From: Amphiscolops sp. MND2022
Taxonomy: Eukaryota
Direction: 5' to 3'
Assembly: GCA_964187785.1 (NCBI GenBank)
Contig: OZ076409.1
Coordinates: 53,694,001-53,758,000 of the forward strand
Length of the DNA stretch: 64,000 nt
Position numbers and translations under genes: made by a program. The notes under the pieces were generated by a model. The model was not told the origin of the DNA. It saw only the letters and a program-made list of their open reading frames with translations, and ran no database searches. Shown one piece after another: positions 14,252 to 52,995 of this stretch. Every line of letters starts with the position of its first letter. Within the stretch, counting starts at the first letter, position 1.

Positions 14252-17200
14252 TCAAGTTTCTACCAAGTTTTTGTCAACAATTTGACATAATTGATTCAAT
14301 GATATCTTCCTGTTTGGGAAATTGACAGATATGTACCGGTTGATAGTTTGCACGAACTTTCGTCGTTTGTTTCTGGATCGGCTGTCATTTTTGGAATGGA
14401 AGCTGAAGACATTCAGTGCTTTGGCCAGAAACTCCCATATCAGCAGCTTGCAGTTCTCAATGGTACTCTCTAGTAACATCTTTGTCATTAACGATAAGAA
14501 ATGTGGGAAACATTTCTCCAGAGGCTCATCATTCTCCCGTTCCCTCTGGTAAATAGTCAACGCCGTGTCTTAAATTATGCACAAGCATTAGTTAAACTGT
14601 ATTGAACACAAAGATGGATTAAAGTCCGATTTTTTAAAAGTAATAAATCAATCCAACTGTTTTCTCAAGAAGAATGAATTTTTGATTTTTTTGTTTTTTA
14701 ACTTTTATCTCTAACAAACATCTGAAAAACAACATTATATGAAAACTGAATTTCATTTCTTTACCTGCTCGTCTTGAATATGTTGTATATTTGAAAATTT
14801 GAAATGAAATGACAGTTTCGATGCCTTCTCGATACATCGGTGCCAACTTTTGATATCAGTGAATTTTGATATAGTTGAAAACGTATTAGTGAAAAAATTA
14901 TAAATACCTAGTTCACATATGGTGATAAAATTGAATTCCACACGGCCATGCTGTCCGCGCAGGTTCTGACGATATGTATCATGCCTGCTGGCATGAGTAA
15001 TGACTCGCCGCCTGTTATTGTCACCTTAAACACTTGACTTTGGAGGTGGGCGTCACTTGGTAGGAAAACATTATATTTTGTTGTCAATGCACCAATTCTT
15101 GAAAAATTCTTGGTTTCGAACTGTTCCGGGAGTCATGAAAAACTCTTTTTTACCAGAAGAAGATGGTATAAGACGCTTGTATCTGTGTCGTCAACATGCC
15201 AAGGTGTAATGGACTCTTTTTGACCAAGGAGAACATAGCAGTTTTTCTCCAGCTCAAAGTCAAACAAATGGGACAAGGAAAGTTCTTTAATGGACTTTGG
15301 TACTGCGAAATGCAGGTTCTTCGAGAGATTAGAGTTGAGATCGAGGACATTCATTGGACCGCTCATAGCTCCGAACTCAATTGCGTTTACAAAATCATTG
15401 CCAGACAGTGTTAAACAGAGGATTTTCTGCAGCTGAAATAGACATGTGTTGGGAATGATAACGGAATGCACTTAAAGGACCTCGTCTTTTGATTTTAATA
15501 AATTAAAACTCTTAATAGTTTTTAATATTCCATTGCCATTGGTGAAATTACAATGATGAACCCAAAAACGTACACTTACAGGATTGTACATTCGGACAGA
15601 TAATTGTATATCTTCTCCGTATAAGCAATCTTCGAAAACGTTTCTCCGAGCTCCAAGTCAATGTTGGGCAATTTTATGCCATCCATATGGCCTCGAACTA
15701 AGCAGTCTTTTTTCCGCCGCAGCTTCTCCTGAATTTCGCTGCTGGTAACAGTGGTGCATCACACTCTCATCTCGGAAGCGGAATAATCTCTAATTACATT
15801 TAACAACCCATGATGCTCTGCTTCATCCACAAATGCAACCAGAGGACCTTCTGCACATCTGCTGCAGATTGAAATCTTTAGTCTTTTTCAACGTTCTCGT
15901 TAAAGTTTTTATTGAAATGATTGGTGGACGTTTTTCAGATATTTTTGATAAGTATCAGTGGAATCGCTTGGCAAGTAGTAAAATTGGTGATTACTAAATT
16001 TCGAAGTAAAACAACAGGATTTTATCGTACCTTGGGAAGCGTGCATGTCTACTTCTTCACTTTCGTCTTTTTCACCGTTCTCTCCGTAGAGGGCCTCTTC
16101 GTGGCTGTCGGAATCTGGAACAAAAAGTGTCAATACAATGATGAAATTTTCATTGAAATGATTGGTGGACGTTTTTCGGACTTTTTCGATAAGTATCAGT
16201 GGAATCGTTTGTCAAGTAGTAAAATTGGTGTTCAGTATAATTGAAATTTAAACAACAGGACTTTATCGTACCTTGGGAAGCGTGCATGTCTACTTCTTCA
16301 CTTTCGCCTTCTTAACCGTTCTCTCCCTGGAGGGCCTCTTCGCTGCTGTCATAATCGTTGCTGTCGGAGAAATTTAAGGAGTATGTTTGATTTAAGGAGT
16401 TTATCGCACCCTTAGGAAGGAACATAAAAGTCTATTTCTACTTCATTTTCGTCTTCTTCACGGTTCTCTTTCCGGAGAGCTTCTTCGTTGGTGTCGGAAT
16501 CTGAAACAAAAAATGTCAAAATCATGATACAGGTTTTGAAATGATTGGTGGTATCAGTGGAATCGTTTGGCAAGTAGCAAAATTGGTACTTAGTATGAAT
16601 GATATAAGTAAAACAACAGGATTTTTAAAATACCTTGGGGGACGTGAATGTCTACTTCTCCTTCACTTTCGTCTTCTTCACAATTCTCCCCTACGGAGCC
16701 TCTTCGTTGCTGCTGGAATCTGAAACCAACATTGTCAAAATTATGACAAAGGTATCGAATTGATAAGTGGATATTTTTTGGATAATTTCGATAAGTATCA
16801 GTGGAATCGTTTGGTAAGTAGCAAAATTGGTGTTTAGTATAATTTATATTAGTAAAAGAAGAGGATTTTTTTAGTACCTTGGGGGGGGGGAGGGAACGTG
16901 AATGTCTACTTCTCCTTCACTTTTGCTTCTTCACCGTTCTCTCCCTGCAGAGCCTTTTCGTCAATATCATGATAAAGATATTGAAATGATTGGTGGATGT
17001 TTTTTGGATAGTATCGATAAGTATCAGTGGAATTGTTTAGCAAGTAGCCAAATTGGTTTTTAGTATAATTTATATTAGTAAAAGAACAGGATTTTTTTAG
17101 TACCTTGGGGGGGGGGCGGGTAACGTGAATGTTTACTTCTCCTATACTTTTGTCTTCTTTTCTGTTCTCTCCCTGTAGAGCTTCTTCGTTGCTGCTGGAA

Positions 17201-18560
17201 TCTGAAACCAACATTGTCAAAATCATGATAAAGTTAATGAAATGATAAGTGGATGTTTTTTGGATAACTTCGATAAGTATCAGTGGAATCGTTTGGCAAG
17301 TAACAAAATTGGTATTTAGTATAATTGATATAAGTAAAACAACAGGGTTTTCCTAGTACCTTGGAGAGGGGGGGTTTGGTTTGAACGTGAATGTCTACTT
17401 CTCCTTCATTTCCGTCTTCTTCACCGTTCTCTCCCTGCAGAGCCTCTTCGTTGCTGTCAGAATCTGAAACAAAAATTGTCAATATCATGATAAAGGTATT
17501 GAAAGGATTGGTGGATGTTTTTGGATTATTTCGATATGTAGCAGTGGAATCGTTTGGCAAGTAGCAAAATTGGTGTTTAGTATAAATGATAAAAGAAAAA
17601 CAACAGGATTTTTATAGTACCTTGAGGGGGACCGTGAATGTTTACTGCTTCATTTCCGTCTTCTTCGCCGTTCTCTCCCCGCAGAGCCTCTTCGTTGCTG
17701 TCGGAATCTGAAACAAAAATTGTCAATATCGCGATAAAGTTTTGATTGAAATGATTGGTGGACGTTTTTCGAACGTTTTCAATTATTATCAGTGGACACG
17801 TTTGACAAGTAGTAAAATTGGTATTTAGTAAGATTGATATAAGTAAAATAACAGGGTTTTATTGTACTTGGGGGACCTGCCTTTCTTCTTCTCCTTCTAC
17901 ACTTTCGCATTCTTCAACGGTCTGTCCCTCTTCATTGCTGTCGGACTCTGATTCTATGTAAACTCGTCGGTACCGACGTGACATCCTTCTCTGATCTCTT
18001 CTCCTTCTCTAAGCTATTCTCGCTTGGTATTGTGGACGCTCGATCTTCTTCTTTGGCGACCCTATGATCTTCATCAGGTCTTTGATGAGATGCGAATACC
18101 CTTTCCCTTCCCGATGTCTTCTTTCCAACCACTTATACTCCCCTGGTTCGTTGTCTTTGGGCTTTGTTTGAAGAAAAACGGATTCTCCTTAGAGGTGAAA
18201 AAAATTGTACTTTTGCTTCAGGCCATGATAAGCAGAACTTTCATTGCACAATTTTTGAATGTTTTCCGTGTTGATTCCAGCAAATTTCCAGGGTACCAAC
18301 CCTCCCTGTGTAACACAAACACTTTCAGAGTGCAAGTTCTTCCGAGGGAGTGTTGAGCAGTTCCATGGTAGCTAAAGAAAGGTCATCCGTCTTTCTCACC
18401 ACATCCACAAAAACGACAAACAAAACTTGCCCGGCTGTAAATCTTTTGTACGATGCAGGTGAACTCCAGATGGTGCTCTTCGAGAGGTCTTTTCCTTGGT
18501 GCCCCGTCTTTGTACATGTGCCTCTGGCACGCAACTTTTTCGCTTAAATTTCCCTGGCAT
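14252..18560 (-). pseudogene. Multi-exon JmjC-domain (KDM2/KDM7-like) histone demethylase gene, frameshifted
   Basis: ITPWHVDDTDTSVLYHLL..GKKEFF..GESLLMPAGMIHIVRTCADSMA (HxD...H triad). Phase-1 intron 14907-14569 joins to TALTIYQRE..CFPHF. Upstream acidic repeat exons and an ATG at ~18560; the 5' extent is inferred. Confidence 0.75.
15905..17950 (-). repeat. Tandem array of ~8 units (~240-260 bp), each an acidic mini-exon plus intron
   Basis: Unit marker ttgaaatgattggtgga at ~15912, 16153, 16537, 16981, 17499, 17746, with variants between. On - each unit has ttgtttcAG|ATTCCGACAGC...CAAG|GTAC. Confidence 0.9.
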
Positions 18561-21089: not shown

Positions 21090-23735
21090 TCTAGAATGGA
21101 GACTTTGCAATACCCCTTTACTTCCTAATTGACTTGAAAGATAGATGCGAAAACCAATTGTGGTCAGGGGTCTGCGATGTTGTCTATGGTAAATTACCTG
21201 CCGACTACTGTGCCGACAATAGTTTTTCTATAATAAGCCCTCACCAGCCCACGTTTGTCTCAGCAAGCAAAAAAGGTTGCTGCATTATCGATTTTTGCAC
21301 CACTGAACAAATTTGCTCTTATCTGGTATGCAATGCACGAGTGATCGATGATATCAAATTTTTCTCTGGTGCTCCAGAGCAAGGTCATTGGCCTGTTCTA
21401 TTTGATATAGATATTGTGAAAAATGATACTGTGAAAAATGATAATCCAAAACGGTGTGTGCTAAACTACAAAATGGCAAATTGGGAAGAAATAAATATAC
21501 AACTGGAAGTTTTTATGGTGGAAAACATGGATAGCATGATAACGGAAGCACCTACGAAAGCTCTCCTAACTTTTATGGCCTAGTGAGAGGAGTTTGTGAA
21601 AATTCGATTTCACGGAAAACACTTTGTAATTATTCCAAACCATACTGGAGCATTAAATTGACTCACTTATCAAAAAAATTGAAAGAAGCAGGCAAAAAAT
21701 ACAGACTCCAATGTAACCTGAAAAACAAAAACATTGTTGAAGTGGCAAAAATCGATTTCAAAAAGGAAATGAAAACAAATATTACTTGTTGGACGCAAAA
21801 TGGCATCATACAATTGAATGGGGGAAACTCAAAAACATTTTTGGATATTATCCGCAAGTTCAATGGTTCAATATAGGAGTACTTCGTCACAAGGGTCAGA
21901 CACTGGAAAAAAGTTGCGATAAAGCTGCGCTCTTTCAACGTATTTCCTTCGATGGCGCACACCTTACTGGTAAACAATTTCACCACGCTTTTTATGAAAA
22001 AACAAAAGTTGAAGTGAAAGAGAAGTTAGCTCACACCGTTGGGAATTATTACAAGGAGGAGGCCAAGAATGATCTAAACAAGCGTATAACAATGACTGAA
22101 CTTAAACAAGCCACAAAAATGAAGACAAACCACAACGGCGTGAATCCTTATGGAATTCACCCTAAGCTAAGAAAGAAATTCAAATTTAACACCATTAGCA
22201 TATGTTTGCACTTGGTAAACAGTGCATTCTTCATGGGAATTTGGCCATTTGATAAAACCATATTCTCAATTTTAAAAAATCTGGCAAAACTGATTATTCT
22301 AATGCATCTTCATGGAGAACTTTTCCACTTACTTCCCATTTAGATAGATAGAAGACTAAGATCATCAGATATCCTCAACATTGATGAACAACAAATTGGT
22401 TTTCAGCCAGGCAAATCAATTTTGCACTACTTATACAAACTATATCATGATATCTTAGCAATCAAAAATTTACCAATAGCAAAAGTATATGATCTAGAGA
22501 AAGCTTTTGACTCCGTAGATCAAACTCTTTTGCTAAGTAAGTCAATAAACAGTGGCTTAAATGGTCCAATGGTAGCTACTATAAAATCTTTTTTATCGAA
22601 TCGGGAAGTCAGTATTCAAGTCAATGACTATATCGACATGTCATTTGTCGCTCTCAATGGTTTACCGCAGGGGGCTGTACTGTCACCACTTTTATTTATA
22701 TTCTATATGAAGGGCTTCCTCCAAGATGCAGACTTAACATATAAGTATGCAGATGACAGTACGTCTCTTTCAAGGAGAGAAAACCTAAGCTTATCCTTAG
22801 AAAAGGCGGAAAACTATACATACAAATGGAGGCAGGTGCTGAATAAAGACAAAAGTGAACATATTAATTTCTGAAAAGAAGTATTTCAGTCCGACTATAT
22901 ATTTGTTGAGAGAAGTAAAACACTTGGCCTATGGTTTGAACGAGATTTGAATTTCAAAACACATGCTGCCAGTATCTCCGCTCCAATGGTTATATTCTGG
23001 AAAGAAACTAGTATACTTAGAACGCAAGGATTAAATCCATTTTACGCTGTACGTATCTTTGATTTATATGTGAAACTACGTGTCACGTACTGTATGACTA
23101 TTTGGTTTCATCAATATATGACATCTCTGGACAAGATGCTGTGGAGTGTTCACATATCGATCATTGGGATAAAAAACTACCAAGTATCGAAACACGTAGT
23201 TTGTGTTTTAGGTAACATTTGGCCTCCTCTATTCTACACTAATCAAGTATTAATGTTTCTACATTCAACTGCTTGAAGTTCAGATATTCTAAACCCACGT
23301 AATTTAGCAATCATACCCCAACATAATATTATGGTGAGATTATTTTTGGTACACAAACTTTCAATTGTAAATCGTGATCCTGATGAAATTAAGGCAATAT
23401 ACATACAATATGCTAGACAATCCTCAGTCAGTACTTTTACGAAGGAGGTGGATGAGTATTGCAGGCACTTATGGCAACGAGAAAAAAATCAAGGTCCTAT
23501 GTACTCAAATTACTCAGGGCTTAAAATAAGAAGCAGCATCAAGAAAATGCTAGCACCATATCCTAGGAAAACTTCTGTCAAAACGCTACGTGTTCTACTG
23601 AATGATTTTGAAGTACGCGAAGTTCAGAAGTAATAAGAGGAAGCCGATATTTGTTTTATTGTAGAGTTGTCGATGATACTGCACTTTTCTTATTTTCCTG
23701 TGTCTCATACCAAGAACACCGAAGGAGTTTCATTA
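21090..23735 (+). pseudogene. Decayed LINE (APE endonuclease + RT + C-terminal Cys/His remnant)
   Basis: PTF..CIIDF..GHWPVLFDI, KPYWSIKL, DLEKAFDSV, GLPQGAVLSPLLFIFY, YADD, CRVVDDT..FLFSC. Confidence 0.85.
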
Positions 23736-27893: not shown

Positions 27894-28762
27894 TGTTCTG
27901 GGAACTGTGAAGAAATTTCTTACATATATCTAATTTTTTTGACCTTTATATCAAAGCAGCTATAAAAAAATACACCGGTCGACTGCATAGTGGCTGGTTT
28001 GAGTAGTTTGTTGGTTGTTTTTTTTTGTTACTGGCCTACTGGTATAGTGGCTGGTATGGGGTTCCCTACTTTCGTTGCAGACCACGGGTGTGTGTCTTCT
28101 CCCCCCAACATGATGATACACATGGCACTTAATTGATGACGAAAATCCTTGATATCTGATAGAGATAAAAGAAAGAAGAAAAAAAATTACATGCCTTAGT
28201 CAGCAAAGCTTATATACCCCCATTCCCCCGCTGGAAGGAAGCGGAGCGCTGTGCCAAGATTGGTCCAGCGGCTGAGTTCGACAACGTTTGACCTGAAGCG
28301 CCGCGGAAAAAGGAAGACCATGTCATACAACCATTATTTCCGATATTGCATTAAGTGGAAGAATTCCGCCAAGAGCAAATCTCTCGAGGACCACAAAAAA
28401 TACAAAGCTTTCAGAAACTAGTTGAGAAAAGAGCCAGGAGACTTGCTGAAGAGAAGGAACAGGAAACAACAGAGAGTAGTTATTGAAACCCCAAGACTTC
28501 TGTGCAACTTCAATTCGTCGAACATTCAAATCGTCGAAAAATGAGGGTGGCTGTAAATAGGTCGAATTTTTCTGGTGGTCGAAAGGACAGAGGTCGAACC
28601 TTTTGATCGAATTGCAGGGATCGAATGGAATGCGGTCGAATTTTATCGTATTTGTTGTATGGCTCGGTCGCTTCGCTCCCTTCGCCAAGTAGCAACATTG
28701 AGGCATGGCCATATGGCACGTCGCTCCGCTTCGCTTCGCTCCTGCATTCAGGGCACTAGGGG

Positions 28763-28979
28763 TGTTGAGAACTATTTCTTTTTCATTTTTATCTTCCTGT
28801 TTTGATTTAACTTTTCATGTTGACTTCTCACTTTTACTTCTTTTTGCCGCTTTGACTTTTTTCATTGTTTTTGTTTGACTTCTAACTTCAATACAAGTAT
28901 CCTACGTCTAGAAAGTTTTGCTATCTAAGCAATAGCATACAAAGAACAACTGTCTTTGCCACAGTTTTTAGAAGAAACA
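28763..28979 (+). repeat. 5' LTR (217 bp)
   Basis: tgttgagaac...agaagaaaca; ~7 substitutions versus the 3' LTR by eye. Confidence 0.95.
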
Positions 28980-28980
28980 T

Positions 28981-29001
28981 TGGTGACCCTGCGACGTGAT
29001 T
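28981..29001 (+). promoter_or_regulatory. Primer-binding site, tRNA-Trp-like
   Basis: tggtgaccctgcgacgtgat versus canonical Trp PBS tggtgaccccgacgtgat (2-nt insertion). Confidence 0.7.
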
Positions 29002-29057
29002 TTCATGGTTAGACCGTTTCAATTTCTTTTTGCTGCGGAGAAGAACCTTGATTATCC

Positions 29058-29664
29058 ATGGTACGAAGAAGTGTCTTTTTGAAGAACGATTCTCAAAATC
29101 TAATCCTGTCAGATTCTTTACTTAAAAACTTCGAAACTATCTCTTTTGATGTGTTATCTGTCCCAGGAGCTCGCCCTGTAGATATTTGGGATTTTTTACC
29201 GCCTTGCAACAAGTATAAAAAGATTGTGTTATTTCTAGGAGGTAACGAACGCTCTAGAAAATTTTACCTCAAAAGGTGGAATTTTTCGATCAGCACAAGA
29301 ACCCGCTGAAGTTGCTGTTGAAATCTGCGATCTTGCGCAAGCTCTCATTTTACGTGCTGCAGAAGTTTTTATTGTTGCTGTGCCTCCTAGGGGAACTGTT
29401 GAGATACAAAATAAAGTACTGGAAATGAACGCAGAACTCAATTTATATTGTAGATACTACTACCAAAGGATTACTTTCGTTGGTATATCTCATTATCTTT
29501 ACGATTTAAAACATATTTCTAAAGATCTCTGTCATTTGGAAAAAGGAGCCTTCGCTAAGGTTCATAAGCTTCTCAACGAAAAAGTTCTGAAGACAAAATT
29601 CAAAGTTCTTTCCCCGAAGAAGTTCCCTACTCTCCCAAAAGTTTACTTCACCTCGCCATTTTAA
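29058..29664 (+). pseudogene. SGNH/GDSL hydrolase-like ORF inside the BEL element, frameshifted by a 4-bp duplication
   Basis: LILSDSLL (block I), SVPGAR (II), IVLFLGGN (III), VFIVAVPPR, SKDLCHL (DxxH, V). aacg is duplicated at 29244-29251. Confidence 0.75.
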
Positions 29665-29817
29665 TTGAAAGGTACTCGCATTTTACTCCTTCTGTGCGTT
29701 AGGCGACCTGCCTGAAAGGGGCTGTGTTCACTCGAATTATTCATAGCTCATTAAAATCTGTTTGTTACTTTGAGTGTCCTGCCTGCAAAGGGCTGAGCAC
29801 ACTCAATTAATCTTGTA

Positions 29818-32800
29818 ATGTCTACGGCTGATACTTCGAAAAGACAAATCGCCTCGAGAAAGGCTCACATGGGTATTGTTACCCGCAAAAGGAATGAATT
29901 TGACTCCATAACGGTTAAATCCATCGATGATGTAACATCTGAAGACAAAATTTTGGTAGAAGCTGCTCTTGAATCACTCCTGGAGAAATCTAAAATACTC
30001 GATCAGATTAACTTAGAATTTTTGAATGATACAGAAAACACTGAGGAAGCGTTAGAGGCAGAATTAGTTATTCAAGATGAAAATAGTACTAAATTGAAGG
30101 GTCTGATAAAATCCATGCAAAAATGGATCTCGGAACATACCGTAGATGCCACAGATGATGAAACGTCTTCGATTAGTTCCTCTCACCCTAGTCATCGAGA
30201 GAACAATGTCCGTTTACCAAGAATTGAGCTACCGACATTTGATGGACAATACAAAGACTGGAAAACTTTCTTTGACATGTTCAAAGGGACAGTCCATAAT
30301 CAACCTACTCTACCAAAAGTTCAAAAACTCTATTACTTGAAAGGCGAAGCCAAGCGCGTACTGGCACATTTGCCAACTACTGAGGCTAATTACGACGTAG
30401 CTCGGAATTTTCTTCAAGATCGATACGACAATCAGTTTCTCATTACAAAAGCTCACCTGAGCAAGATTTTCAAAATTGATCCAATGAAGAAAGAATGTCG
30501 GGATAGTCTTGGGAAGCTCATTGGCGTTTTCAATGAAAATGAGATGGCTTTAAATGCTTTGGGCATTGATACGAAAGCTTCTGATTTCATATGGATCCAT
30601 GTTTTGTCCGAAAAACTTGATTCGGAAACTGCTAAAGAGTGGCAACTTACGAACGTTGACGGCAAGTTGCAAAGTATGGACTCATTGAGAAAATTTCTTG
30701 AACTTCGAGCCAGAGCTCTTGAAGCTTCTGGTGGAACATCTGAACAAAAACGAGAACCGATGAAAGAAAATAGAAACGGGAATGAGAAACCGGATGATGC
30801 TTTCCAGAGTTACCAGTCAACGTCTGTTTCTTGTGCTTTCTGTAAACATTCGCACCGGATATATGTCTGTTCTAAATTGTTAGCATTACCTGTTGCGGAA
30901 AAGTATGAGCAAATCAAAAAACTTAGATTGTGTTTCAATTGTTTGAAAGATGGTCACGGCATCAAAGCTTGCAAGTCAAAGTCCTCATGTCAGAAATGCA
31001 AAAAGAAGCATCATAGTTTACTACATCGCGATGAGTTCAATTCTCCCAAGTTCAGTAGCAATGGCGTCACCTCTGATGAACCCAATTTCATTGGATATCA
31101 AGGGGAAGCAAACTATACTACTTTGTTACCTACTGCCATTGTGTCCGTTGTCAACTCGCATAACGAACTTGTACAATGCCGCGCCTTGTTAGATTGCGGC
31201 TCGCAACTTAGTTTCGTTACACAACGTTTAGCGAAGCAACTTAACCTGAACCAAACGAAAGTGCAGTTGAATCTGAGTGGAATTGGTGGAAAGGTAAATG
31301 ATGTAAAAGCTGGTCGTCTTGATCTAGTTTTGAAAGCAAATTCTAAGCAAGTGAATGTGTCAGCTTTTGTTTTGAAGCAGCTAACTAATTGTATTCCAAG
31401 CAGATCTGTTGTGGTCTCTGACATTCCTGATCGATTTCCATTGGTTGATCCAGACTTTCACCTTGCCAAATCAATTGATATCATTCTCGGTGCAGATGTC
31501 TACCAAGAGTTGATTGAAAATCAACGTGAGGAATTGTCGCCCGGATTGTTCTTGAGGAAGACTATCTTTGGTTGGATAATTCTCGGCAAGCAACCAGGAA
31601 AAACTGACGGGCTTGCTCTTTGTCATTTTTCTCTCGACGAAACTGTCCGAAAATTTTGGGAGATCAAAAGTTTACCCCAATCAAAATTGCTAAGCGATGA
31701 AGAAAATGCTTGTGAAGAACACTTCAAAGAAACAACAACAGTCGTTGATAATCGTTTCGTAGTGAAATTGCCCTTCAAAAAAGATGTTGATTTAGGTGAT
31801 AGTTTCGCCCAAGCTAAGCAACGCTTTGACTCACTAGAACGCCGTTTGAACAGAGATCCTAATCTCAGACAAAAATATGCTGCTTTCATTAATGAATGCC
31901 TTGCTCTTGACCATATGGAAATCATACCAGAAAGTGAAATTGTCAAACCCCCCAATGAAGTTTATTATCTGGCACATCACTGCGTATTCAAAGAGGATTC
32001 CACCAACAACCAAATTAAGGGTAGTCTTCGATGGTTCGGCTAAGACCTCTAATGGCATTTCACTGAATGACATTTTGATGATAGGACCTGTCGTCCAAAA
32101 TGATTTATTCACCATTCTAAATCGATTCCGTTTTCAAGTGATCGCACTGTCGGCGGACATGGCCAAAATGTATAGACAAGTGGAACTTGATAAACATGAT
32201 CAAGACTTCCATCGCCTTCTTTGGCGAAACACGAAAGAAGACGTCATTCAACACTTGCGAATGAAACGAGTAACATATGGAATCTCGTCTTCTGCGTTTC
32301 ATTCGACTCGATGCTTGAAAGAAATTGCAACCCGGACTGAGCTGCCTGCAGTGGCTGATGCTCTCAATTAATGCTTTTATGTGGATGATTTCCTGGGCGG
32401 TGCCAATAGTATTACCGAAGCACGGCAAATTGTTAAAGACTTGTGTCAACAGTTGTCTGATTTCGGTTTCGAACTGCGGAAGTGGACTTCCAGTCACCCA
32501 GAGCTCACTGCGGAGCTGCCACTTGAGCTAAGGGGAACGTCCGACCAACTTGAACTTTTTTCCAAAGAGTACAAAACCAAAGCTCTTGGTATATGTTGGA
32601 AACCTAATGCGGACACTTTCGTTTTTTCGATTGAATTGTTTCATATCGAGCAACACACTAAGCGTGCTCTTTTATCTGATTCCTCCAAAGTCTTCGATCC
32701 TATGGGTTGGATTGGACCTGTCATCATTGTTTTCAAGTGTCTAATACAGCAAACTTGGGTTGAAGGTCTCTCTTGGGACGAGGAACTTCCCATTCCAATT

Positions 32801-34912
32801 ACCAAACGATGGATTGAGTTGCGCGAAGAATTAAAACTCTTGAATGATCTCGAAATCCCCCGCTGTGTTATTCCAACAACTGAACATGAAAAGCATTTGC
32901 ACGTTTTCTGCGATGCCTCCGAAAAAGCTTATGCTGCAGTTGTTTATGTGCGTACTGAGACCACTGACGGTGGTGTACAGGTTTGGCTGTTGACTTCTAA
33001 AACGCGAGTAGCACCGGTGAAGCAGTTATCAATGCCACGCCTTGAACTTTGCGCTGCTCAATTGGGCGCAAACCTGGTACATAACTTGAGTGTTTCTCTC
33101 CAAATTCACAACGTTTTTGCGTGGACTGATAATACTATTGTTCTCAGTTTTCTCTCAAAGTTACCGAGAACTTGGAACACCTTCGTCGCGAATCGTGTCT
33201 CCAATATACAAGAAGTTTTGCCCCGTAAGCACTGGGACCATGTTCCAACCGATGAAAATCCAGCTGATATAGTTTCTCGAGGAACAACTGTTTCTCATTT
33301 ATTGCCAAAAAATTTATGGTGGAGAGGCCCGTCGTGGTTATCAACAAAGAAACAAAACTGGCCGCACTTCAAACCTACAAGTGAAGAAGTTCCAGAAAAA
33401 CGTGAATTTAAACAAATTCTCACAGTATCCGTTGCTTCACCTATCATTGAGATAGATCGTTTCTCATCCTTCTCTAAGTTATGTCGAGTTTTTGCTATGG
33501 TAAAACGATTTGTAGCAGCTTTGAAGAAAAACCGTGACAATCTCCAGCTACCGATAACTTCTCTCGAACTTTCAGATGCTAAACACAGTTTAATTTCGCT
33601 CGAGCAAAATCGGTTCTTCAAAGAAGAACTAAAACTCTTGAAAGATGAACAACAGCTGTCGAAATCGTCAAATTTGCGGAATCTTTGTCCTTTTTATGAC
33701 CCAGATTACAATGCCCTTATAGTCGGAGGTCGTTTGGGCAATTCAAGCTATCATGAACTGAAGAAATTTTCATTTTTGATCCCTACGAACTCACATTTGG
33801 CTCCATTACTTGTTCGCCATTTTCATGAAGAGACACTTCATGGTGGGGGGCAAATGACTCAAGCTGCTCTCAGGGAGCATTTTTGGATAGTAGGAGTGAA
33901 ACCCTTGATAAATGAAACAATCCAGAATTGTTTAAAATGTTGTCGCTATTCATTGAAGGCTCCCTTTCAACTTACGGCCGATTTACCTGCCGAACGCGTT
34001 ACACCAGCCAGGCCTTTTTCGCTTTGTGGGCTTGACTTCGCTGGGCCTTTTATAACCAAATTGCCTGAATGTGAAGGTCAAAAAAGGTACATTGCCTTAT
34101 TTGTGTGTTTCGTCACGAAGGCAGTACATCTTGAACTCGTTTCGAGTTTGACTAAAGAAGCATGTATTATGGCTTTGAAACGATTTGCATCTAGACGCGG
34201 CACACCCACTAAATTATTCGGCGATAATGGCTTGAACTTCATCGGTGCCAGAAATGAACTTTTGAAACTCGAAGAGATTCTGGCCAGCCGTGATGAGGAA
34301 TCAGTCTTTGCATATGCCAACCAAAAAGGTTCACAATGGATTGTAATCCCGCCTCGAGCACCACACTTTGGTGGATTATGGGAAGCGGGAATCAAGAGTA
34401 TGAAAAGGCATTTGCGTCGTGTTGTCGGGCAACAGAAACTAACTAATGAAGAGTTTTTGACTGTTTTGCATCAGGTAGAAGCTGTTATGAACTCAAGACC
34501 GTTGACACCGTTATCATCGAATCCAAACGATCTAACACCCTTATCACCCGCTCACTTCCTAATTGGTGGACCATTTTCACCGCAGGAGATGAACGACCAG
34601 CAATGTACGTCGCGAACACGTTTCCGATTAATCCAGCAGATTCAAAAGGATTTTTGGGATGCTTGGAAGCGTGATTATCTCACAATACTCCAAGTGCGAA
34701 AGAAATGGTTTACCAATGGACCTGAAATCAAATGTGGCGATCTGGTCCTTCTCGCGGAAGATAACCTTAAACCCCTACAATGGAAGACAGGCCGTGTTGT
34801 AGAAGTATATGCAGGCAATGATAGTGTCAAAAGAGTTGTGAAAGTTAAAACATCAGCCGGAGATATAATACGACCCGTCGTGAAGCTCAGAAAGCTTCCA
34901 ATTGAACAATGA
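29818..34912 (+). pseudogene. BEL/Pao gag-pol polyprotein (one frameshift ~32003, stop 32369-32371)
   Basis: RLPRIELPTFDG, Cys/His knuckles, ALLDCGSQ protease, KLRVVFDGS, YVDD, HVFCDASEKAY, HHCC, GLDFAGP, APHFGGLWEA. Confidence 0.95.
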
Positions 34913-34974
34913 TTTTCATCTTTTCTGTGGTGCATAAATTGATTATAAAGATTTATAGATCAAGGGGTGCGGTA

Positions 34975-35708
34975 TGTTGAGAACTATTTCTTTTTCAATT
35001 ATATCTTCATGTTTTGATTTAACTTTTCATGTTGACGTCTCACTTTTACTTCTTTTTGCCGCTTTGACTTTTTTCTTTGTTTTTGTTTGACTTCTAACTT
35101 CAATACAAGTATCCTACGTCTAGAAAGTTTTGCTATCTAAGCAATAGCATACAAAAGCGGGTTCCGGACGTTTCGGCACAAGACGTTTCGGCAACAAAAT
35201 GGCGGAAGACGTTTCGGCAACTTTTTGTTGCCGAAACGTCTTTGGTGCCGAAACGTCTTCACAGCAGGTGAAAGACGTTTCGGCAACAAATTTCCAGTAC
35301 TTTCCCCTTCTAATGTGGGGGCATATTCGGTGTATGCACGCTCGCCCTCACCGTCGCAAAGACCAGCTCCCACTACGATCGCTTCGCGATCTCCGTTTCC
35401 GCTAGGTCTTTGCTCCTGTTCGACCTCGCTTAGCAAGATGGGAATATAAGCGGCCCCAAGGGGCCGCGGGGCACTAGAGGAAATGGGGACATATATGGGG
35501 CACGTTTCATACTAAAGAAAACTACAGATTATTCTTCTTGTTGCCGAAACGTCTTTGGTGCCGAAACGTCTTCACAGCAGGTGAAAGACGTTTCGGCAAC
35601 ATTTTGTTGCCGAAACGTCTTCCGCCATCTTGTTGCCGAAACGTCTTGTGCCGAAACGTCTTGTTCCCCAAAGAGCAACTGTCTTTGCCACAGTATTTAG
35701 AAGAAACA
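34975..35708 (+). repeat. 3' LTR interrupted by a MITE
   Basis: LTR halves at 34975-35158 and 35669-35708. Confidence 0.93.
35159..35668 (-). mobile_element. MITE, gacgtttcggca sub-repeats, core A (reverse)
   Basis: Long imperfect TIRs; GGG..CCC ends; TSD caaaagc/caaagagc; the 5' LTR shows the empty site. Confidence 0.85.
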
Positions 35709-36399
35709 AGGGGTATGTGAACATATCTGACTACGTTATAAAAATTTCGATCCGAGTTGTTTCGATCCCATTCAAAAAATTTGGTATGTCGACCTGAGGA
35801 CTAACTCTGATTTTCGATCCCGTTCCTTCGACCTACTTCCGCCCACCCGAAAAATGAAAAGCTATTCAATGCGTCGAAAGTATTCCATATCAGCGAATAT
35901 TTTCATTTGGTTATATTTAGTGGCGATCAGCATATTTGTTGTATGGCTCGGTCGCTTCGCTCCCTTCGCCAAGTAGCAACATTGAGGCATGGTCATATGG
36001 CGCTTCGCTTCGCTCCTGCATTTAGGGCACTGGGAGTATGTGAAAATAGCTGACTACGTTATCGTAATTTTGAATGCTCGAATTTGATTGGCCGAAATCA
36101 ATTCATTCCATTACGTCATACCATGCTTGCTAAAGTTATACGTGTTCGACGAATTGAATGTTCGACGAATTGAACAGTCCCCCTTTTGGAGCTATGTCAG
36201 TCAAAACGAAACGACGAAGTGAGTAAGTTCTGGCAATAAGAAAATTGCTTTTTCACGGAAACGGACTCGAGAAAGCAAAAGAATGGCTATTTTCTCACAA
36301 TCATGTCGAGCTTGGGTTGTTAGTTTTCAAGTTAGAACTACCGACCCTATATTTTCAAAAAAAGAGGTGGATTTATTGAAGTGTACACGGTACTCAATA

Positions 36400-36987: not shown

Positions 36988-39900
36988 AGTGATATGAGAA
37001 GTGAGAATAATTGCAGCTCCCCTGAAAGTAAATCTTTATCGCCTTCAAATGAAATTTCATTCCAACAGGAAGACCAGTCGATAGTTTTGGAAGATGAAAG
37101 CGAATCTTTCCGTAATTCGGCCTTAGGTGTGAAAAAGTTTTTCTGTGAAACATGTGATTTTGCATGCTTTTTCGAAAAAACACTGCTGGATCATAAAATA
37201 AGTGATCATGACGGTGGTCTGGCTCATTTCTGTCAGAAGTGCGATCGACGTTTCAAAGAAAAGCAAGACGTGGAACATCATATTCTGGTTGAACATTTGC
37301 ATCCATCTTCTTATTGGCGGAAAGGATCTGCCAAGCAAAGGAGGAGTCTGAAAAACTTCAAGTGCGAGGAGTGTGGAAATTCATTTACCCAGAAACTCCA
37401 TCTTCAACGACATCTGAAAGTTCATGAGTTGCAAAAAGAGAGAAAGTGCGTAATTTGCGAGGTAAATTTTCTATCAGGCCAACAATTATATTATCTAATG
37501 TGATTGTCATTGTCATGATTGTTTTAAAGGCTCGCTCATGCAAATATTTTAGTTACTGAACGCTTTGTATTTCCATACATTTATTGATGTCGTTTTCTAA
37601 TGTAAGGCTTTCGTTGGAATTTCTATAGAGACAACCAACGGAAACTTATGATTGTCACCTGTATTTCAGAATTCTTTCGCGAGCGAAGACCTTTTGCTGA
37701 GTCACGTAAGAACATATCATACAGAATTCTCCGGTGAACTTTCACCTTCCAAAGCGCAAACAGGCCAAGCATGGCGTTGCACCAAATGTGGGAAGACCTT
37801 CAAATACCAAACAAACCTTCGCAAACACATTGTCAATGTACATGGTACTTTATCGGATGAAGAGGATGATGAAGATAACGAAGAATTGTTCACTTCAAAT
37901 GCAGATCCTGATTTTTCTCCGTCGCCGAAACGGAAGATACCAGAGCCAACTAACTGTAGCAAAAGTTTCGACAAATGTTAGTTTTTCCTGTTTAGTTCTG
38001 TATTTTTTGCATCATGTCATGTACTCATTGTTTTTAGCATCCTAAATGCTCACTGTTTCAGCTTTTAATGCCGAAAGAATTCTCAACAGTTTCTAAGCCA
38101 TTTGAACTGAAGCGAGCGCCTGTTAAGCTTTAAGCGAGGCACCGGCCTAAGCTATTCCTGTCTTGTTTCAAATGTTTTGGTTTTACTGCCATGCTTTTCT
38201 TTTCAGGTGAAGAAGAAACTAACGACAAAGTGTCAACAGATTTTTTGGAGAAGCCGGAATCCATAATCGATAGTAAGTTTTACCTCTGTGGTTATAATCT
38301 TTAGTTTTTCGGAATACGAATTTCAATAATTTTCACTGCTGAAATATGTGATGGTAAATCTGAGTGTAAAAATGAAGTATATGTATTCAGTTATCAAAAA
38401 TCGACCGAGTAAACTTTTTTACCGAAGTATCTAAATGCTCTAAACCTTTGAGTTTTTCATAGTATTTACCGAATCCTCGAAACTACTCGGTGTTTTTTCG
38501 GCACTGTTCTACTTTTTTCATGCCTCGTCTGTCCCCCCTTCGATTTTGTTCATGTTTCAAGTTAGGTCAATACGTTTCGAAAGTGTAAAGGTCCTCCTTC
38601 AGGGTTTTCGGTACTGTGCGACTTTTGTCGTCAATTTGGTTTTACAAGTAAGCTAGAAAGGCCAAACTTTTTTCGAACCCAGCAATGGTGAGTTGAGAAC
38701 GATTGGACCATTGATTCCGCACTGACATCAACCCGCCTGTTAGTCTTGCAATTACATCATCCTCAAAAACTGGAAATTTCATTAGTTTTGTTTTATTTTA
38801 CAAGGTATTTTGAATGAACACTTTGTCTTTGAAAGCAAAACTACATGATTTTGATTCGTTTCAGTTTTTGATTTAAGTCTCCTTTCATTTCAAGTTTTTC
38901 GTTTTTCTTTGAAGAACTGTGGTAAGTAGCTGAATAATTCGGTTTTCAGGATTGTCGATCATGTGTACGAAAACTGTGTCAAAGAACAGAAAACTTGTTT
39001 TTCATAACTTACGTTTATTTCAAGCATTTTTTTTCAATAAAAAGCTAATAACAAGCATGTTTTGAAGTCTTAATTTCTTGTTATCGAATTGTGTATATTC
39101 AAACCCACGGAAACGTACGTTATTTTGACAGTTTATGCTTTTTTGGGCATTTTGGGGCTTTAGAAAATAAAACTTCAGTTTCTCGTTTCGAAATTTTACT
39201 AAAAACATGACTTCGGACTTGAAAAAGCTCTGAGTAGCTAAGTGTTTCTTGGTTGAATTTTGTGAATTATTTTTAAAAAATACTCGAAAACAGTTCTAAA
39301 CTGCAACTGATCGGTCGAAAATTTTGAACTTTTTTGGAATTTTTTCGAGGTCTTTCTTAAGCACTTTTCAACAAAACACATCGGATTGCCCTCCACACTT
39401 ACGATAATGGGTGCTTTTTTCCGTGCGACAACTCTCGTTTCAGCCGGTAAGTCGCACAGTTCAGGAGTTCATGGTCTTGTGGTAAGATGCTTGCTTTTCA
39501 ACCCAGAGGTTTTACAAGCCGTGCTGCTTCCAAGCGGTCTATATTAGCCGCGACAGTTTTCCCCGACTGTTTATGTTGCCAAAGGTCCCCTCTTTGGTTA
39601 TTTTGAATTTTTCCACCCTACTGGTTGATAAAAAAGTCTAAAGGGTCCCCTCTTTTGCGTTTTTCGGCATAGTAAGACTTTTTTTGATTTTTTTAAAAAA
39701 ATTTTGTGGATCTGAATTCTGAATAGTAATATTCCCATATGGAAATATAGGCGGAAAATAATGTAACACTGCACGCGACCATAAAAGCATTGAACTATCT
39801 TGACAGTGTGGAACAGCAGTGTGTGTTAGCAGAAGATCACGACGTGTAAAATCGTGCGTGAAATCCGTATTGACATTTCCGTATAATCGACGATCAGAAA

Positions 39901-42900: not shown

Positions 42901-44697
42901 GGTTTTTGGCTTTTATTCTCACCAGAAACATCGGAAAAAGAATAGCGAGAATCCTTTTTTGAAAAGGAAATTTTCCCAAAATAGTCGCATAATGCCGAAA
43001 AAAAACCAAAGGGGACCCTTTGGGCTCAAAAACATTTCCTATCCCAAAAGTTTGCTAATTTGTAGCGATTTCGTCAAAATTTGGCATTCGCCTTGAAATT
43101 TCAACCGGATTGAAAAGCACGACGAAAAGTAAGTTTTTTCATAAAACGCCGGCTAAAAAGGATCAGATGTTCAATTGGGTGCATTTCGGAAAGCTTTCCA
43201 TCTTATGTTATTTACATAATGTGAAAAACATCAAATAATGATACTTCAACATTAACAATTTGTATGACAATTTAATTGTAACAAGACCAACGCAGAGTCG
43301 TCACGATTTGGGTAAATAACACCCTTAAGCATTTAACAGTAAATAGCGTCCAAATTATGCAGCAATCTGCTTGAATCCATACTGAAAAGTAATCTTCGTA
43401 AAAAGATCAGTTAGACTCTGACCCATTGGAAAGAATGGAAATCTGTTCCCCGAAAATGTTTTTACTTTCCTCTAATTTATCTAAAACCAAGTTATGTGCA
43501 GTATTGGTTCGGTAAAAATCTCAAAGTTTTAATGGAAATTCTTAGATGGATTCTTTTTTCGTATAGATTCATTATATATTCGTATAGATTCATTATGTAT
43601 TCGTATAGATTCATTATATATTCGTATAGCATCATTTTCGTATATTCAAGACTTTTCTACATCTTTGCACTGGCTGAGGAATGCATCCCTTTTTCATCGA
43701 TATTTGATTGAGCTCATGCTTGTTTCAGCTGTGGTTCAACAACCGAGGAAGTGCCTAATCTGCAAACTAATGCTGCCAAATATAGAAAAGCTGAAAGAAC
43801 ACGTCCACTCCACTCATGCCCTTCAGTCTCAGTCACAAGCTCACCACGCCACCTCATCGTCATCTCATATCATCAAACAACATACCGCACCTAACGTAAG
43901 AGGAGTACTTATTTTTACCAGAACCTTATTGTTGTTACTTGAGAATTCCATTCGGTGCCACCATTGGGCATGTTGAAAGAAAAACGTCTCCGTTTTGCAT
44001 ATGACACGGAACTTGCTCTTTGGACCTATGTGGGTTATGCCTAATAATAATCAATCTTGAAATGATTGATTAGCTTTAGAACTTTTTCATTTAAAAAACA
44101 TGATTCCGTCAAAATTTAAAACGGTTTTGATTCCGTTAGTAGAAAGCATCAACAACAAATCGGAAACATACTGTGATCCGCACCCTTTTCATGAACTGAG
44201 GACTTTGGATCATTGGAAACTATTTTCAGCATTTCGATGAAACCACTGGATCATTGCCAGACGTAGACGAGTTCGGGTCCGCTACCGGTGACATTGAGCT
44301 GGACAGTCTCAGTGGATTTGACCCCGGCATGTTTGACACTTCTTTGACTAAATCCCCGGAACCTGCAGACACGTCTGTGGAAAACAAGGAGTACCAATGC
44401 AACGAGTGCAACCGAACCTTCAAATATCGATGGAACTACGACAGGGATCAAGAGATGCATCGCAACCAGGCCCAGAGATCTAAAGCTGCGGCTATTAAGG
44501 CATCTGGCAAGGAATGGATGTTGGATTGTCCACATTGTTCGGAACGGTTTATAGATAAAATAGCTATGATGCAGCATATCAAAAAAGCCCACGAAGCCCA
44601 ACCTAAACATGTATGCGAAATATGTGGTGAAACTTTCACCCGGAAGTACCTCTTGATCAGCCATGTTGAAACACAACATCCAGAAATGTTGGTGTGA
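36988..44697 (+). CDS. Multi-C2H2 zinc-finger protein (~10 fingers), at least 6 exons; 5' end uncertain
   Basis: Phase-consistent exons 36988-37461, 37670-37976, 38207-38272, 40291-40518, 43729-43895, 44230-44697 with GT-AG sites. One finger is split across an intron (CVICE|NSF..HVRTYH). Confidence 0.85.
41334..42847 (+). mobile_element. Internally deleted hAT5-like transposon in a zinc-finger gene intron
   Basis: TIR cagggtggccacgct/agcgtggccaccctg; 5-bp TSD tctca; BED-like W..CRFC; ASVESGFSINK; C-terminal coiled coil; gtcagggc sub-repeats. Confidence 0.85.
43559..43636. repeat. 21-bp minisatellite x ~3.5
   Basis: tcgtatagattcattat[ag]tat repeated. Confidence 0.9.
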
Positions 44698-46020: not shown

Positions 46021-46088
46021 TTTCATTGAATTGGTTTTGAAAAATCATATTCTAGTTTAATTCGTATGTATCACGTTTCCAGAAAAAA

Positions 46089-51225: not shown

Positions 51226-51973
51226 TGAAACATTTAAAAAATTTTTCTTGAAGAGTTCTATATGTTCCGCCATTGTTGTTTTCAACTGTTGCATGAAAAC
51301 CTTTTACACTATTTGTTTTATGTCGATTTTGTTTTCCAAAATTGATTTTATGAACAATTGGTCTTCGATTGTCGAGTTTTGGGTGATTTAAAAGTTCGTT
51401 ACCAGTTGCCTCGGTTTCCAAATTTGCATTAGGCAACAATTTCTGTATGCAATCTAATACATATAACAAATGAGAGTTCCTCTGAGCGCTGTTTTGATTT
51501 TGAGAAAGTGTCTGTTTGGAAACGTGGTCCAGTTTTTTTCTCCAAGATGCGATGATTGAAAGTGAAAGTTTTGATATAAATAATTCTCGAAGATGCTCCA
51601 TGAACCAAAACACGCTTTTTAGTGTCCTCCGATATTAAATTTTTGTTGTCATGATTCCAGTTTCTTTCGTGAGTCTTCCATATACACTACAGTAAACAAA
51701 GCTGAAGAAATCTGAATGTGCATCATTTCTCTGAATATACAAAAAAGTCTCAGGAGCAAAAGTTTCATTGTGATGAGATTACCGTGGCATGTTTTGTTTT
51801 GAAGTCGAGCAAAAATACGAAAGTTGTTACATCATCTCATGTTATTTCGGAATTTTCCAAACTTTCTCTATATCTCAAAAACCACTGGTCATGCGATGAA
51901 ATCCCAAAGAGCAATTTTATTGTTGCAACTGTTTAACGTTTTTCGTTTTGAAAATTCAGCTTAAGCGGAATAA

Positions 51974-52995
51974 TTACACTTGCGATAAGCAAGTGTTATG
52001 GGACAGTGCGGGTGCTTTTTTTCCGCGCGACAACTCTCTCGTTTCAGACCGCAAGTTGCATAGTCTGAATTTGTGGCCGTGACAACTTCTGGTTGGCCAA
52101 CTTCCAGCACTTGTCGCAACTTCTGGCACTTGGCATAGAGGTTAATTAGGATTATTTGAGGTCTGCCAAGCAGAAGGACGTGGGTTCGAGTCTCGCCCTT
52201 GACCAAAGTTTTTTGTGCATGTTATTTCGGCTTTGTGACTTTTTTCGCAATTTTTTTAATGTCACCGAAGATTCCTCCCTTCATTTTTTTGGTATTTTGC
52301 AACAGAACGAATGTTAAAAAATCCCAAAGGGTCCCTTCTTTCAGATTTTTCGGCACTATGAGACTATTGAAAATTCTCGTTTTTTGTTTTTTTTTTTGCA
52401 AAATTTTTCAAGTCTCGCTTCAATTTTTGAAATTTTGCAACAGAATGGATGTTAAAAAAATCTCAAAGAACCCCCCTTTCACAGTTTTCGGCCTTGTGAG
52501 ATTTTTCAAAAGTAATAATTTTTGTCTTAAAATTAGGTTTTCTCAGGCCCAGCACGCTATATCCGATTTTTGTTTTTTTTTAAAGACCGCTGTTTTTTCT
52601 ATGCGACTTTTTTTCTAATTTGTTTTCATCGAAGCCCCCTCAATTTTTACTAGAAACGAAACGTTTTGCGAGCATAAAGCACTGCTCAAGGTTTTCGGCA
52701 CTATGCGACTTGCCGGAGACCTTCATCAAAAAAAAAATTTTCGAAAAATTTTTCCTCAATTTTCTGTTTTTCTTAAAGGTTGAGAAAGATGGGTTTTCTG
52801 TTGTTTCCAGTTGCAGAAAAATTGTTTTCGAGATTTATGGGTATCTCTTCGGGATTTTTTGGCGCTGTAAAATTGATGAAATTTTAATAATGTCCTTTTA
52901 CCCTTGGCTCTCCGTATGATATTGCTTATTTGGGTTTCTTCAAAAGTTTGCAACTTTCTTCGCAAGAGTTTGCGAAGCACGGCTTCGCCTCTGTG
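51974..52995 (+). mobile_element. Helentron/DINE-like element (acacttgcga family) with a different tRNA-like cassette
   Basis: Same termini; cassette tggcatagagg..ggttcgagtct..acca at ~52130-52205. Confidence 0.8.

What the first reader, a model, noticed from the sequence alone, without database searches (positions are those of the whole stretch)
29058..29664. BEL/Pao retrotransposon with an extra SGNH hydrolase ORF upstream of gag
Seen: a ~200-aa ORF between the PBS and gag with all four SGNH blocks (SDS, PGA, GGN, DLCH). Removing one 4-bp duplication restores the frame. Known: SGNH esterases occur in ORF1 of CR1/L2/RTEX LINEs and as extra ORFs in bdelloid LTR elements, while BEL/Pao elements normally have a single gag-pol with an optional 3' env. 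Inference: a distinct BEL lineage with a captured 5' esterase that may act on membranes or RNP assembly.
Basis: partly seen in the sequence, partly recalled or inferred. Interest (0 to 1): 0.7.

Follow-up and report, generated by a model that had tools for sequence, protein, structure and literature searches.

The report
BEL/Pao retrotransposon with extra esterase gene
A lineage of BEL/Pao jumping genes in an animal genome carries an extra, well-conserved esterase-type gene in front of its usual genes, and relatives of that gene also turn up in another BEL element and in a LINE, suggesting a swappable accessory enzyme that may help these elements deal with membranes.

Summary
Confirmed and extended. 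The window holds a complete, decayed BEL/Pao element (28763-35708; 217-bp LTRs, 5-bp target duplication). Between PBS and gag lies a ~200-codon ORF, broken here by one frameshift. Intact natural sister proteins fold as an SGNH hydrolase (pLDDT 88, Z 19); the family profile's best PDB sequence hit is the ZfL2-1 LINE esterase. The ORF belongs to the lineage. Three families (54-98% identical) share contig lengths with their own gag-pol family: 6/8, 8/13 and 6/13, with one cross-family match. They also share leader and spacer motifs, diverge in step with gag-pol, and keep S-G-N-D-H in 36/38 long members. A fourth family found no gag partner. A related stand-alone subfamily sits behind pol (probably in the LTR) of another BEL element and ahead of ORF1 of a LINE, one locus each. 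Eight paper searches found no BEL/Pao esterase; Repbase and Dfam could not be checked. Esterases are known from LINEs, Penelope, Ngaro and bdelloid Vesta ORF3. Activity, expression and role are untested; a cytosolic, basic membrane-acting acyl-hydrolase is my best guess. New variant of a known kind.

The parts
28758..28762 (+). 5' target-site duplication (AGGGG)
   Evidence: same 5 bases at 35709-35713
28763..28979 (+). 5' LTR, 217 bp, TG...CA
   Evidence: 7 mismatches in 217 against the 3' LTR (3.2%, from the two blastn pieces)
28981..28998 (+). primer-binding site (starts TGG, one base after the LTR end); a tRNA-Trp type from recall, not tested
   Evidence: no tRNA gene in the window to test against
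28999..29057 (+). leader, conserved in other families; holds an upstream ATG (29005) opening a 25-codon frame that overlaps the esterase start
   Evidence: N-terminal read-ins of P0064, P0166, P0167 match it
29058..29664 (+). stand-alone SGNH hydrolase ORF (~200 aa), broken in this copy by one frameshift just after the GGN block
29665..29817 (+). 153-nt spacer with two copies of a short motif (about 29706-29725 and 29774-29803), kept in another family; possible cis-signal for gag translation or packaging
   Evidence: fold z -1.49, not significant; no Rfam match
29818..34912 (+). BEL/Pao gag-pol (gag with three Cys-His knuckles, protease, RT, RNase H, integrase); broken by a frameshift near 32005 and a stop at 32369-32371
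34962..34974 (+). polypurine tract
34975..35708 (+). 3' LTR, interrupted by a 513-bp MITE-like insertion (35156-35668) with a 4-bp duplication
35709..35713 (+). 3' target-site duplication (AGGGG)

Best explanation
This is a decayed copy of a multi-family BEL/Pao lineage whose ancestor took up a stand-alone ~200-aa SGNH (GDSL-type) serine hydrolase gene between PBS and gag and has kept it under selection. SHOWN: element anatomy; SGNH fold; S-G-N-D-H catalytic set kept; family-matched co-occurrence and parallel divergence with gag-pol; shared leader and spacer. INFERRED: it is the first long ORF of the genomic RNA and so is translated directly, while gag-pol, 153 nt downstream, needs re-initiation, internal entry or a processed RNA, perhaps through the conserved spacer motif. 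The protein has no signal peptide, membrane anchor or coiled coil (nucleophile at residue 20) and is basic (pI 9.3-9.7, Lys/Arg-rich tail). By analogy with the ZfL2-1 esterase it most likely binds anionic membranes from the cytosol and cleaves acyl esters of lipids or acylated proteins, helping virus-like particles assemble on, move along or cross membranes in an element without env. Odds: selected element-encoded SGNH gene about 0.9; catalytically active about 0.8; membrane or lipid role about 0.45.
For: Fold: AlphaFold model of natural P0002 with a 30-row alignment, pLDDT 88.3, pTM 0.83; Foldseek 109 matches at E<=0.001, best 4.5e-7 PAF acetylhydrolase; VIA Z 19.0, rmsd 2.5 A, 165 aligned. 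Profile A3 vs PDB sequences: best of 7 hits is 4c1b, ZfL2-1 ORF1 esterase, E 2.6e-5, aligning all four blocks. Atlas: GDSL clusters at 0.94. Multi-copy clusters of 8, 23, 32, 20 members. Contig-length matches with own gag-pol family 6/8, 8/13, 6/13; one cross-family match. Pairwise identity SGNH/gag/pol: 68/67/71, 58/52/57, 54/55/59. S-G-N-D-H in 36 of 38 listed members of 184 aa or more. Leader and spacer read-ins of 5 of 5 tested relatives beat all of 969-989 random window stretches. ZfL2-1 esterase is active and binds anionic lipids and liposomes (PMC3905857).
Against: One family (P0004 cluster, 23 members) matched none of the four gag clusters looked up (0 of 15 listed). No full-length gag-pol of this lineage was found (best 32-38% among 91 hits of 1296 aa or more), so no clearly active element was seen. 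The two residues called transposon-specific in LINE esterases (H191, S228) are replaced by hydrophobic ones here, and there is no coiled coil, so the ZfL2-1 analogy is partial. The best folds are small-acyl acetylesterases (sialate O-acetylesterase, PAF-AH), tied in Z, which does not point to long lipids. No dN/dS, expression or activity data.
Confidence: 0.75

Rival explanations
1. Same selected gene, but a small-acyl (O-acetyl) esterase acting on a host metabolite, glycan or acylated defence protein, i.e. a host-manipulation factor unrelated to membrane passage.
For: Top structural matches are sialate O-acetylesterases and PAF acetylhydrolases; LINE-specific H191/S228 pair absent; the module appears in different element classes and positions, as expected for a trans-acting factor.
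Against: Z-scores across SGNH enzymes are close and give no substrate; no signal peptide to reach surface glycans; the basic surface resembles the membrane-binding ZfL2-1 enzyme.
Confidence: 0.25
2. The protein works mainly as an RNA-binding or particle-assembly cofactor (as the catalytically dead OSK domain of Oskar does, recalled), or the ORF mainly tunes gag-pol translation; catalysis is secondary.
For: Basic protein with a Lys/Arg-rich tail; OSK domain is among the folds matched (Z 8.8); the ORF sits in front of gag.
Against: All five catalytic positions are kept over 45% divergence in the close clade and in 3 of 3 distant clusters checked (9/9, 11/11, 12/12 long members); isolated ZfL2-1 esterase did not bind oligo-A RNA; a purely regulatory upstream ORF need not keep a fold.
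Confidence: 0.12
3. A passenger: picked up from a LINE by template switching and carried along without benefit.
For: Best sequence-profile hit is a LINE esterase; a related ORF lies in a LINE (L002); bdelloid GDSL ORF3s evolve neutrally within a genome (PMC5408684).
Against: Open frames of 196-201 codons and an invariant active site in families only 54-68% identical, with divergence equal to that of gag-pol.
Confidence: 0.06
4. An unrelated insertion into this one copy.
For: The copy does carry another nested insertion, in its 3' LTR; the ORF is slightly more AT-rich than pol (GC 0.37 vs 0.43).
Against: Family-matched co-occurrence in three families; shared leader and spacer; no second PBS or terminal repeat around the ORF.
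Confidence: 0.02

Closest known systems
BEL/Pao LTR retrotransposons (Belpaoviridae, Semotivirus; PMC8742986, whole text read; PMC3118150, passages)
   Same: TG...CA LTRs of 0.2 kb, PBS, PPT, 6.4-kb size without the nested insertion, single gag-pol with PR-RT-RH-IN order, BEL-typical Pfam domains.
   Different: [quoted passage not shown] 'Esterase' and 'upstream' do not occur in the main text of PMC3118150.
Bdelloid Vesta LTR retrotransposons with GDSL esterase ORF3, shared with Athena/Terminon elements (PMC5408684, parts 1-3 of 5 read)
   Same: LTR element with a captured SGNH ORF with intact catalytic residues; same ORF type shared between unrelated retroelement classes.
   Different: Vesta is not BEL/Pao, its ORF lies 3' of pol and is longer (1.3-kb amplicons); here it is 5' of gag and 0.6 kb. 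Kinship of the two enzymes was not tested.
SGNH esterase of ORF1p in CR1/L2/RTEX LINEs and Penelope (ZfL2-1, PDB 4c1b; PMC3905857, parts 1-2 of 6 and passages)
   Same: Best sequence-profile match (E 2.6e-5); same four blocks; basic protein; 5' position in the element.
   Different: No coiled coil or arginine-rich linker before the domain; H191 and S228 not kept; it accompanies rather than replaces the nucleocapsid protein.
MDG1/412-group sORF1 and sORF2 upstream of gag (bioRxiv 10.1101/2025.03.14.642691, passages)
   Same: Accessory ORFs between LTR and gag in env-less LTR elements; sORF2 mediates membrane passage into the oocyte.
   Different: Gypsy-type elements; 70-110-aa non-enzymatic proteins (transmembrane fusogen), not a hydrolase.
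Ngaro-like DIRS elements with an SGNH ORF (PMC9210276, passages)
   Same: Extra SGNH ORF of unproven function in a gag/RT element.
   Different: Tyrosine-recombinase elements; ORF lies after YR.

Membership tests
BEL/Pao (Belpaoviridae) | LTRs of 0.2-1.2 kb with TG...CA ends, PBS and PPT | tested here: met
   217-bp LTRs, TGG-starting PBS, PPT, 5-bp target duplication
BEL/Pao (Belpaoviridae) | gag-pol with PR-RT-RH-IN order and BEL-type domains | tested here: met
   DUF1759 5.8e-29, Peptidase_A17 1.2e-50, DUF5641 6.3e-30, Integrase_H2C2; named homologues of the gag are arthropod BEL-type polyproteins
BEL/Pao (Belpaoviridae) | RT phylogeny inside Semotivirus and assignment to a subclade (BEL, Pao, Tas, Suzu, Sinbad) | not tested
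   no reference set of named subclades was at hand
BEL/Pao (Belpaoviridae) | PBS complementary to host tRNA-Arg or tRNA-Gly (ICTV profile) | not testable with these tools
   no host genome, no tRNA in the window; from recall the PBS looks more like a tRNA-Trp type
SGNH/GDSL hydrolase superfamily | alpha/beta/alpha SGNH fold | tested here: met
   (Z 19.0, rmsd 2.5, 165 aligned); first model gave Z 12.3 with SGNH proteins filling the 50 rows
SGNH/GDSL hydrolase superfamily | Ser, Gly, Asn, Asp-x-x-His in blocks I, II, III, V | tested here: met
   aligned to 4c1b; kept in 36 of 38 long members
SGNH/GDSL hydrolase superfamily | Pfam Lipase_GDSL(_2) above the curated cut-off | tested here: inconclusive
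   no hit for the close family; weak hits for most distant relatives, above cut-off for P0183, P0264, P0307, P0308 (4 of 39)
SGNH/GDSL hydrolase superfamily | ester hydrolysis | not testable with these tools
   needs an assay
LINE ORF1p-type esterase (ZfL2-1 class) | transposon-specific H191 and S228 | tested here: not met
   Phe and Val in P0002, hydrophobic across the family
LINE ORF1p-type esterase (ZfL2-1 class) | coiled coil N-terminal to the esterase in one ORF | tested here: not met
   the domain starts at residue ~14 of a ~200-aa ORF in the close clade and most relatives
Bdelloid Vesta GDSL ORF3 | ORF downstream of pol in a Vesta-clade element | tested here: not met
   upstream of gag in a BEL/Pao element; enzyme kinship not tested

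The most novel reading that the evidence does not exclude
A compact, stand-alone SGNH hydrolase is a mobile accessory cassette exchanged among BEL/Pao elements (before gag in one lineage, inside the LTR in another) and LINEs (ahead of an ordinary ORF1), and in the env-less BEL elements it serves as an enzymatic route across membranes, a lipolytic counterpart of env or of the MDG1 sORF2 fusogen.
Probability: 0.2. Interest if true: 0.82.

Novelty: new variant of a known kind. Interest (0 to 1): 0.6.

Why it matters
Why retroelements of five unrelated classes keep capturing SGNH esterases is an open question since the ZfL2-1 structure (PMC3905857) and the bdelloid ORF3s (PMC5408684). This adds BEL/Pao, where I found no such gene described, and in the cleanest form: a single-domain ORF, separate from gag, in several parallel families with natural intact copies that can be expressed and assayed. 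Since Gag already supplies the capsid, the esterase cannot just be standing in for it, which separates the 'scaffold' from the 'membrane enzyme' readings of LINE ORF1 esterases. The close family escapes Pfam, so standard annotation would call the region a non-coding leader. If the cassette also moves between LTR elements and LINEs, it is a second case of the cross-class ORF pool seen in bdelloids.

Tried and rejected
No host genome is held. DNA context for the close family: nothing in JGI metagenomes, IMG/VR or GTDB genomes; distant subfamily nothing in IMG/VR; a BEL-pol survey of IMG/VR gave one weak locus, L003, not used. Pfam on the ORF pieces and close relatives gave only sub-threshold V4R or DUF459 hits, rejected as noise. 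Rfam: no match in the leader/ORF/spacer or in L001 and L002. Spacer fold not better than shuffles (z -1.49; 14 of 200 as good). Two esterase copies on one contig as a sign of LTR location: rejected, because pairs also occur in the close clusters. The tree is the quick version, rooted at the midpoint, with 40 of 149 listed representatives (those spanning the domain) plus 8 close proteins and 2 loci; deep branches are open, so it does not show donor or direction. Host taxon not determined: none of the clusters looked up carries a usable name. Earlier scan notes: nothing by sequence or place.

Full report
1. The element. The window holds one complete LTR element from 28763 to 35708 between two copies of AGGGG. 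The LTRs are 217 bp, begin TG and end CA, and differ at 7 positions (3.2%). The 3' LTR is interrupted by a 513-bp insertion with inverted ends. A PBS starting TGG follows the 5' LTR and a purine tract precedes the 3' LTR. The long coding region (29818-34912) gives DUF1759, aspartyl protease/DUF1758, a weak RVT_1, Peptidase_A17, Integrase_H2C2 and DUF5641, the BEL/Pao set in the order given by the ICTV profile (PMC8742986, whole text). It is broken by one frameshift near 32005 and one stop at 32369. There is no room for env: 62 nt separate the pol stop from the 3' LTR. The host is a eukaryote with intron-split eRF3-like, Gar1 and C2H2 genes in the window; BEL/Pao elements are described from animals only. 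The taxon was not determined.

2. The extra ORF. It runs from ATG 29058 to a stop at 29664 and is broken once, just after the GGN block. Read through with X it found 17 clusters among 146 candidates, 54-98% identical, ten of them 184-201 aa long. Four clusters are multi-copy (8, 23, 32, 20 members) on long, mostly different contigs, as expected of transposon families. Pfam does not recognise them. Other lines do. The natural sister P0002 folded with a 30-row alignment reached pLDDT 88.3 and matched SGNH hydrolases at Foldseek E 4.5e-7 (109 matches at E<=0.001) and Z 19.0 over 165 residues at 2.5 A. The 30-row profile's best of 7 PDB sequence hits is the ZfL2-1 LINE esterase 4c1b (E 2.6e-5), with Ser, Gly, Asn and Asp-x-x-His aligned. 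The Atlas gave GDSL clusters at 0.93-0.94 (the Pfam share in the first cluster is 46%). All five catalytic positions are kept in 36 of 38 listed members of 184 aa or more (3/4, 11/11, 11/12, 11/11; 8 of 8, 15 of 23, 15 of 32 and 15 of 20 members were listed).

3. It belongs to the lineage. No DNA of sister families could be fetched, so three indirect tests were used. (a) Contig lengths as identifiers. A gag search returned 5 proteins at E<=1e-60 among 8000 candidates; four clusters were listed. The 97% gag cluster shares 6 of its 8 contig lengths (the window's own contig left out) with the 98% esterase cluster. The 64% gag cluster shares 8 of 13 with the 67% esterase clusters (15 of 120 gag members listed). 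The 51% gag cluster shares 6 of 13 with the 54% esterase cluster (15 of 53 listed). The small 60% cluster shares 1 of 5 with the 67% clusters. Across families there is one match, a contig that carries both esterases. Against: the 68% esterase family (P0004) matched no listed gag cluster (0 of 15), and equal length shows the same contig, not adjacency. (b) Read-ins. Some database proteins start early or run past the stop. P0064 and P0166 begin with a stretch that matches the window's PBS-leader, P0167 matches the leader from ATG 29005, and P0048 and P0054 run into both copies of the spacer motif. All 5 beat every one of 969-989 random window stretches, P0064 and P0166 only narrowly (56 vs 55, 54 vs 51). 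(c) Parallel divergence. Between the three paired families identities of esterase, gag and pol are 68/67/71, 58/52/57 and 54/55/59%. The ORF is thus as constrained as gag-pol and was inherited with it. No full-length gag-pol of this lineage was found (91 hits of 1296 aa or more, top ones 32-38% identical), so the copies seen look decayed.

4. A wider family in other places. The profile search of 1.84 billion representatives gave 171 hits at E<=0.001 (150 listed). Many are stand-alone ORFs of 180-215 aa, 20-32% identical to P0002, often ending in a Cys cluster; several are multi-copy on long contigs, and one cluster shares a contig length (960605) with the close families, so both kinds probably occur in one genome. 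Two loci give DNA (2 of 25 pattern matches). In L001 a BEL integrase end (DUF5641, E 1.1e-8) is followed by a purine tract and a TG start like ours, then the intact 198-aa esterase (865-1461), then PBS-like TGG motifs near 1541-1605. The simplest reading is an esterase inside a long LTR, but the LTR end is not clean and this is one 1.7-kb contig. In L002 the esterase (222-836, one stop) lies 256 nt before ORF1 and an endonuclease-RT ORF2 of a LINE. It shares the C-rich composition of the LINE body (C 0.30, GC 0.51 vs 0.30 and 0.47-0.50) and not that of the upstream flank (GC 0.30). In a quick tree the close families form one branch (99) and the L001 and L002 proteins fall in another (98); deeper branches are open. 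The family therefore seems to be shared between BEL and LINE elements at varying positions, on one locus each.

5. How it most likely works. The ORF is the first long frame after the LTR, preceded only by a 25-codon frame from ATG 29005. Gag starts 153 nt after its stop, so gag-pol needs re-initiation, internal entry or a processed RNA. The twice-repeated spacer motif kept in another family is a candidate signal, but its fold is not significant and Rfam has no match. The protein has its nucleophile at residue 20, hence no signal peptide or coiled coil, and is basic (pI 9.3-9.7; 10-12 Lys/Arg in the last 45 residues). The ZfL2-1 esterase is a slow but active hydrolase that binds anionic lipids and liposomes by surface charge and did not bind oligo-A RNA (PMC3905857). 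I infer a cytosolic acyl-hydrolase that acts at membranes to help particles assemble, travel or cross (about 0.45). Rivals are a small-acyl esterase acting on a host substrate (0.25; best folds are acetylesterases, and H191/S228 are not kept), an RNA or assembly cofactor (0.12) and a passenger (0.06). None of this function is shown.

6. What is known. SGNH esterases are reported in ORF1 of CR1, L2, RTEX and Penelope elements (PMC3905857; PMC13343379, passages), as ORF3 of bdelloid Vesta LTR elements and in Terminons (PMC5408684, parts 1-3 of 5; PMC6431247 and PMC5718144, passages), after YR in Ngaro elements (PMC9210276, passages) and in a fish Helitron (PMC4021074, search listing only). Accessory ORFs upstream of gag are known in MDG1-group gypsy elements, one being a fusogen (bioRxiv 10.1101/2025.03.14.642691, passages). 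Eight full-text searches showed no paper linking an esterase to BEL/Pao; PMC3118150 (passages) and PMC3286476 (passages) do not describe one. An unchecked note of this scan reports an SGNH cargo behind RNase H in giant copia elements.

7. Verdict. Each ingredient has a precedent; the combination of BEL/Pao, a stand-alone enzyme before gag, and apparent sharing with an LTR position and a LINE was not found in print. New variant of a known kind; interest 0.6.

Noticed in passing
L001:171-1540: A BEL element whose intact 198-aa esterase lies between the pol end and PBS-like motifs, i.e. probably inside a ~1.4-kb LTR; a protein-coding LTR would be unusual.
   Followed up: partly
L002:222-1092: Stand-alone esterase ORF ahead of an ordinary LINE ORF1, making a three-ORF LINE; the spacer holds three copies of a ~45-bp GC-rich repeat (about 920-1070), no Rfam match.
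   Followed up: partly
window 29706-29725 and 29774-29803: Two copies of a short motif that can each form a small hairpin with a GNRA loop (by eye), kept in another family; whole-spacer fold not significant.
   Followed up: partly
window 35156-35668: MITE-like insertion in the 3' LTR, with 77-bp inverted arms, itself containing a ~190-bp repeat that also occurs at 23851, 26909 and 27540.
   Followed up: no
window 28981-29000: The PBS looks like a tRNA-Trp type with a small irregularity (from recall), not the Arg or Gly types named by ICTV; the 54% family differs after about ten bases as judged from its read-in peptide.
   Followed up: no
proteins P0172-P0229: The distant stand-alone subfamily ends in a His/Cys cluster (C-x3-5-C-x-C) that the close families lack; possible metal site.
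   Followed up: no
protein P0307: A 562-aa relative joins an SGNH domain to a NADAR domain.
   Followed up: no
window 56018-57666, 46056-46607, 44200-44697, 36988-37503: Host exons: eRF3-like GTPase, Gar1/Naf1 domain, C2H2 zinc fingers.
   Followed up: no
window 21741-23633 and 61020-61969: A decayed RT-bearing element and a Tc1/mariner-type transposase remnant.
   Followed up: no
window 15903-17876 and 48593-59832: Arrays of ~250-bp and ~140-bp repeats.
   Followed up: no
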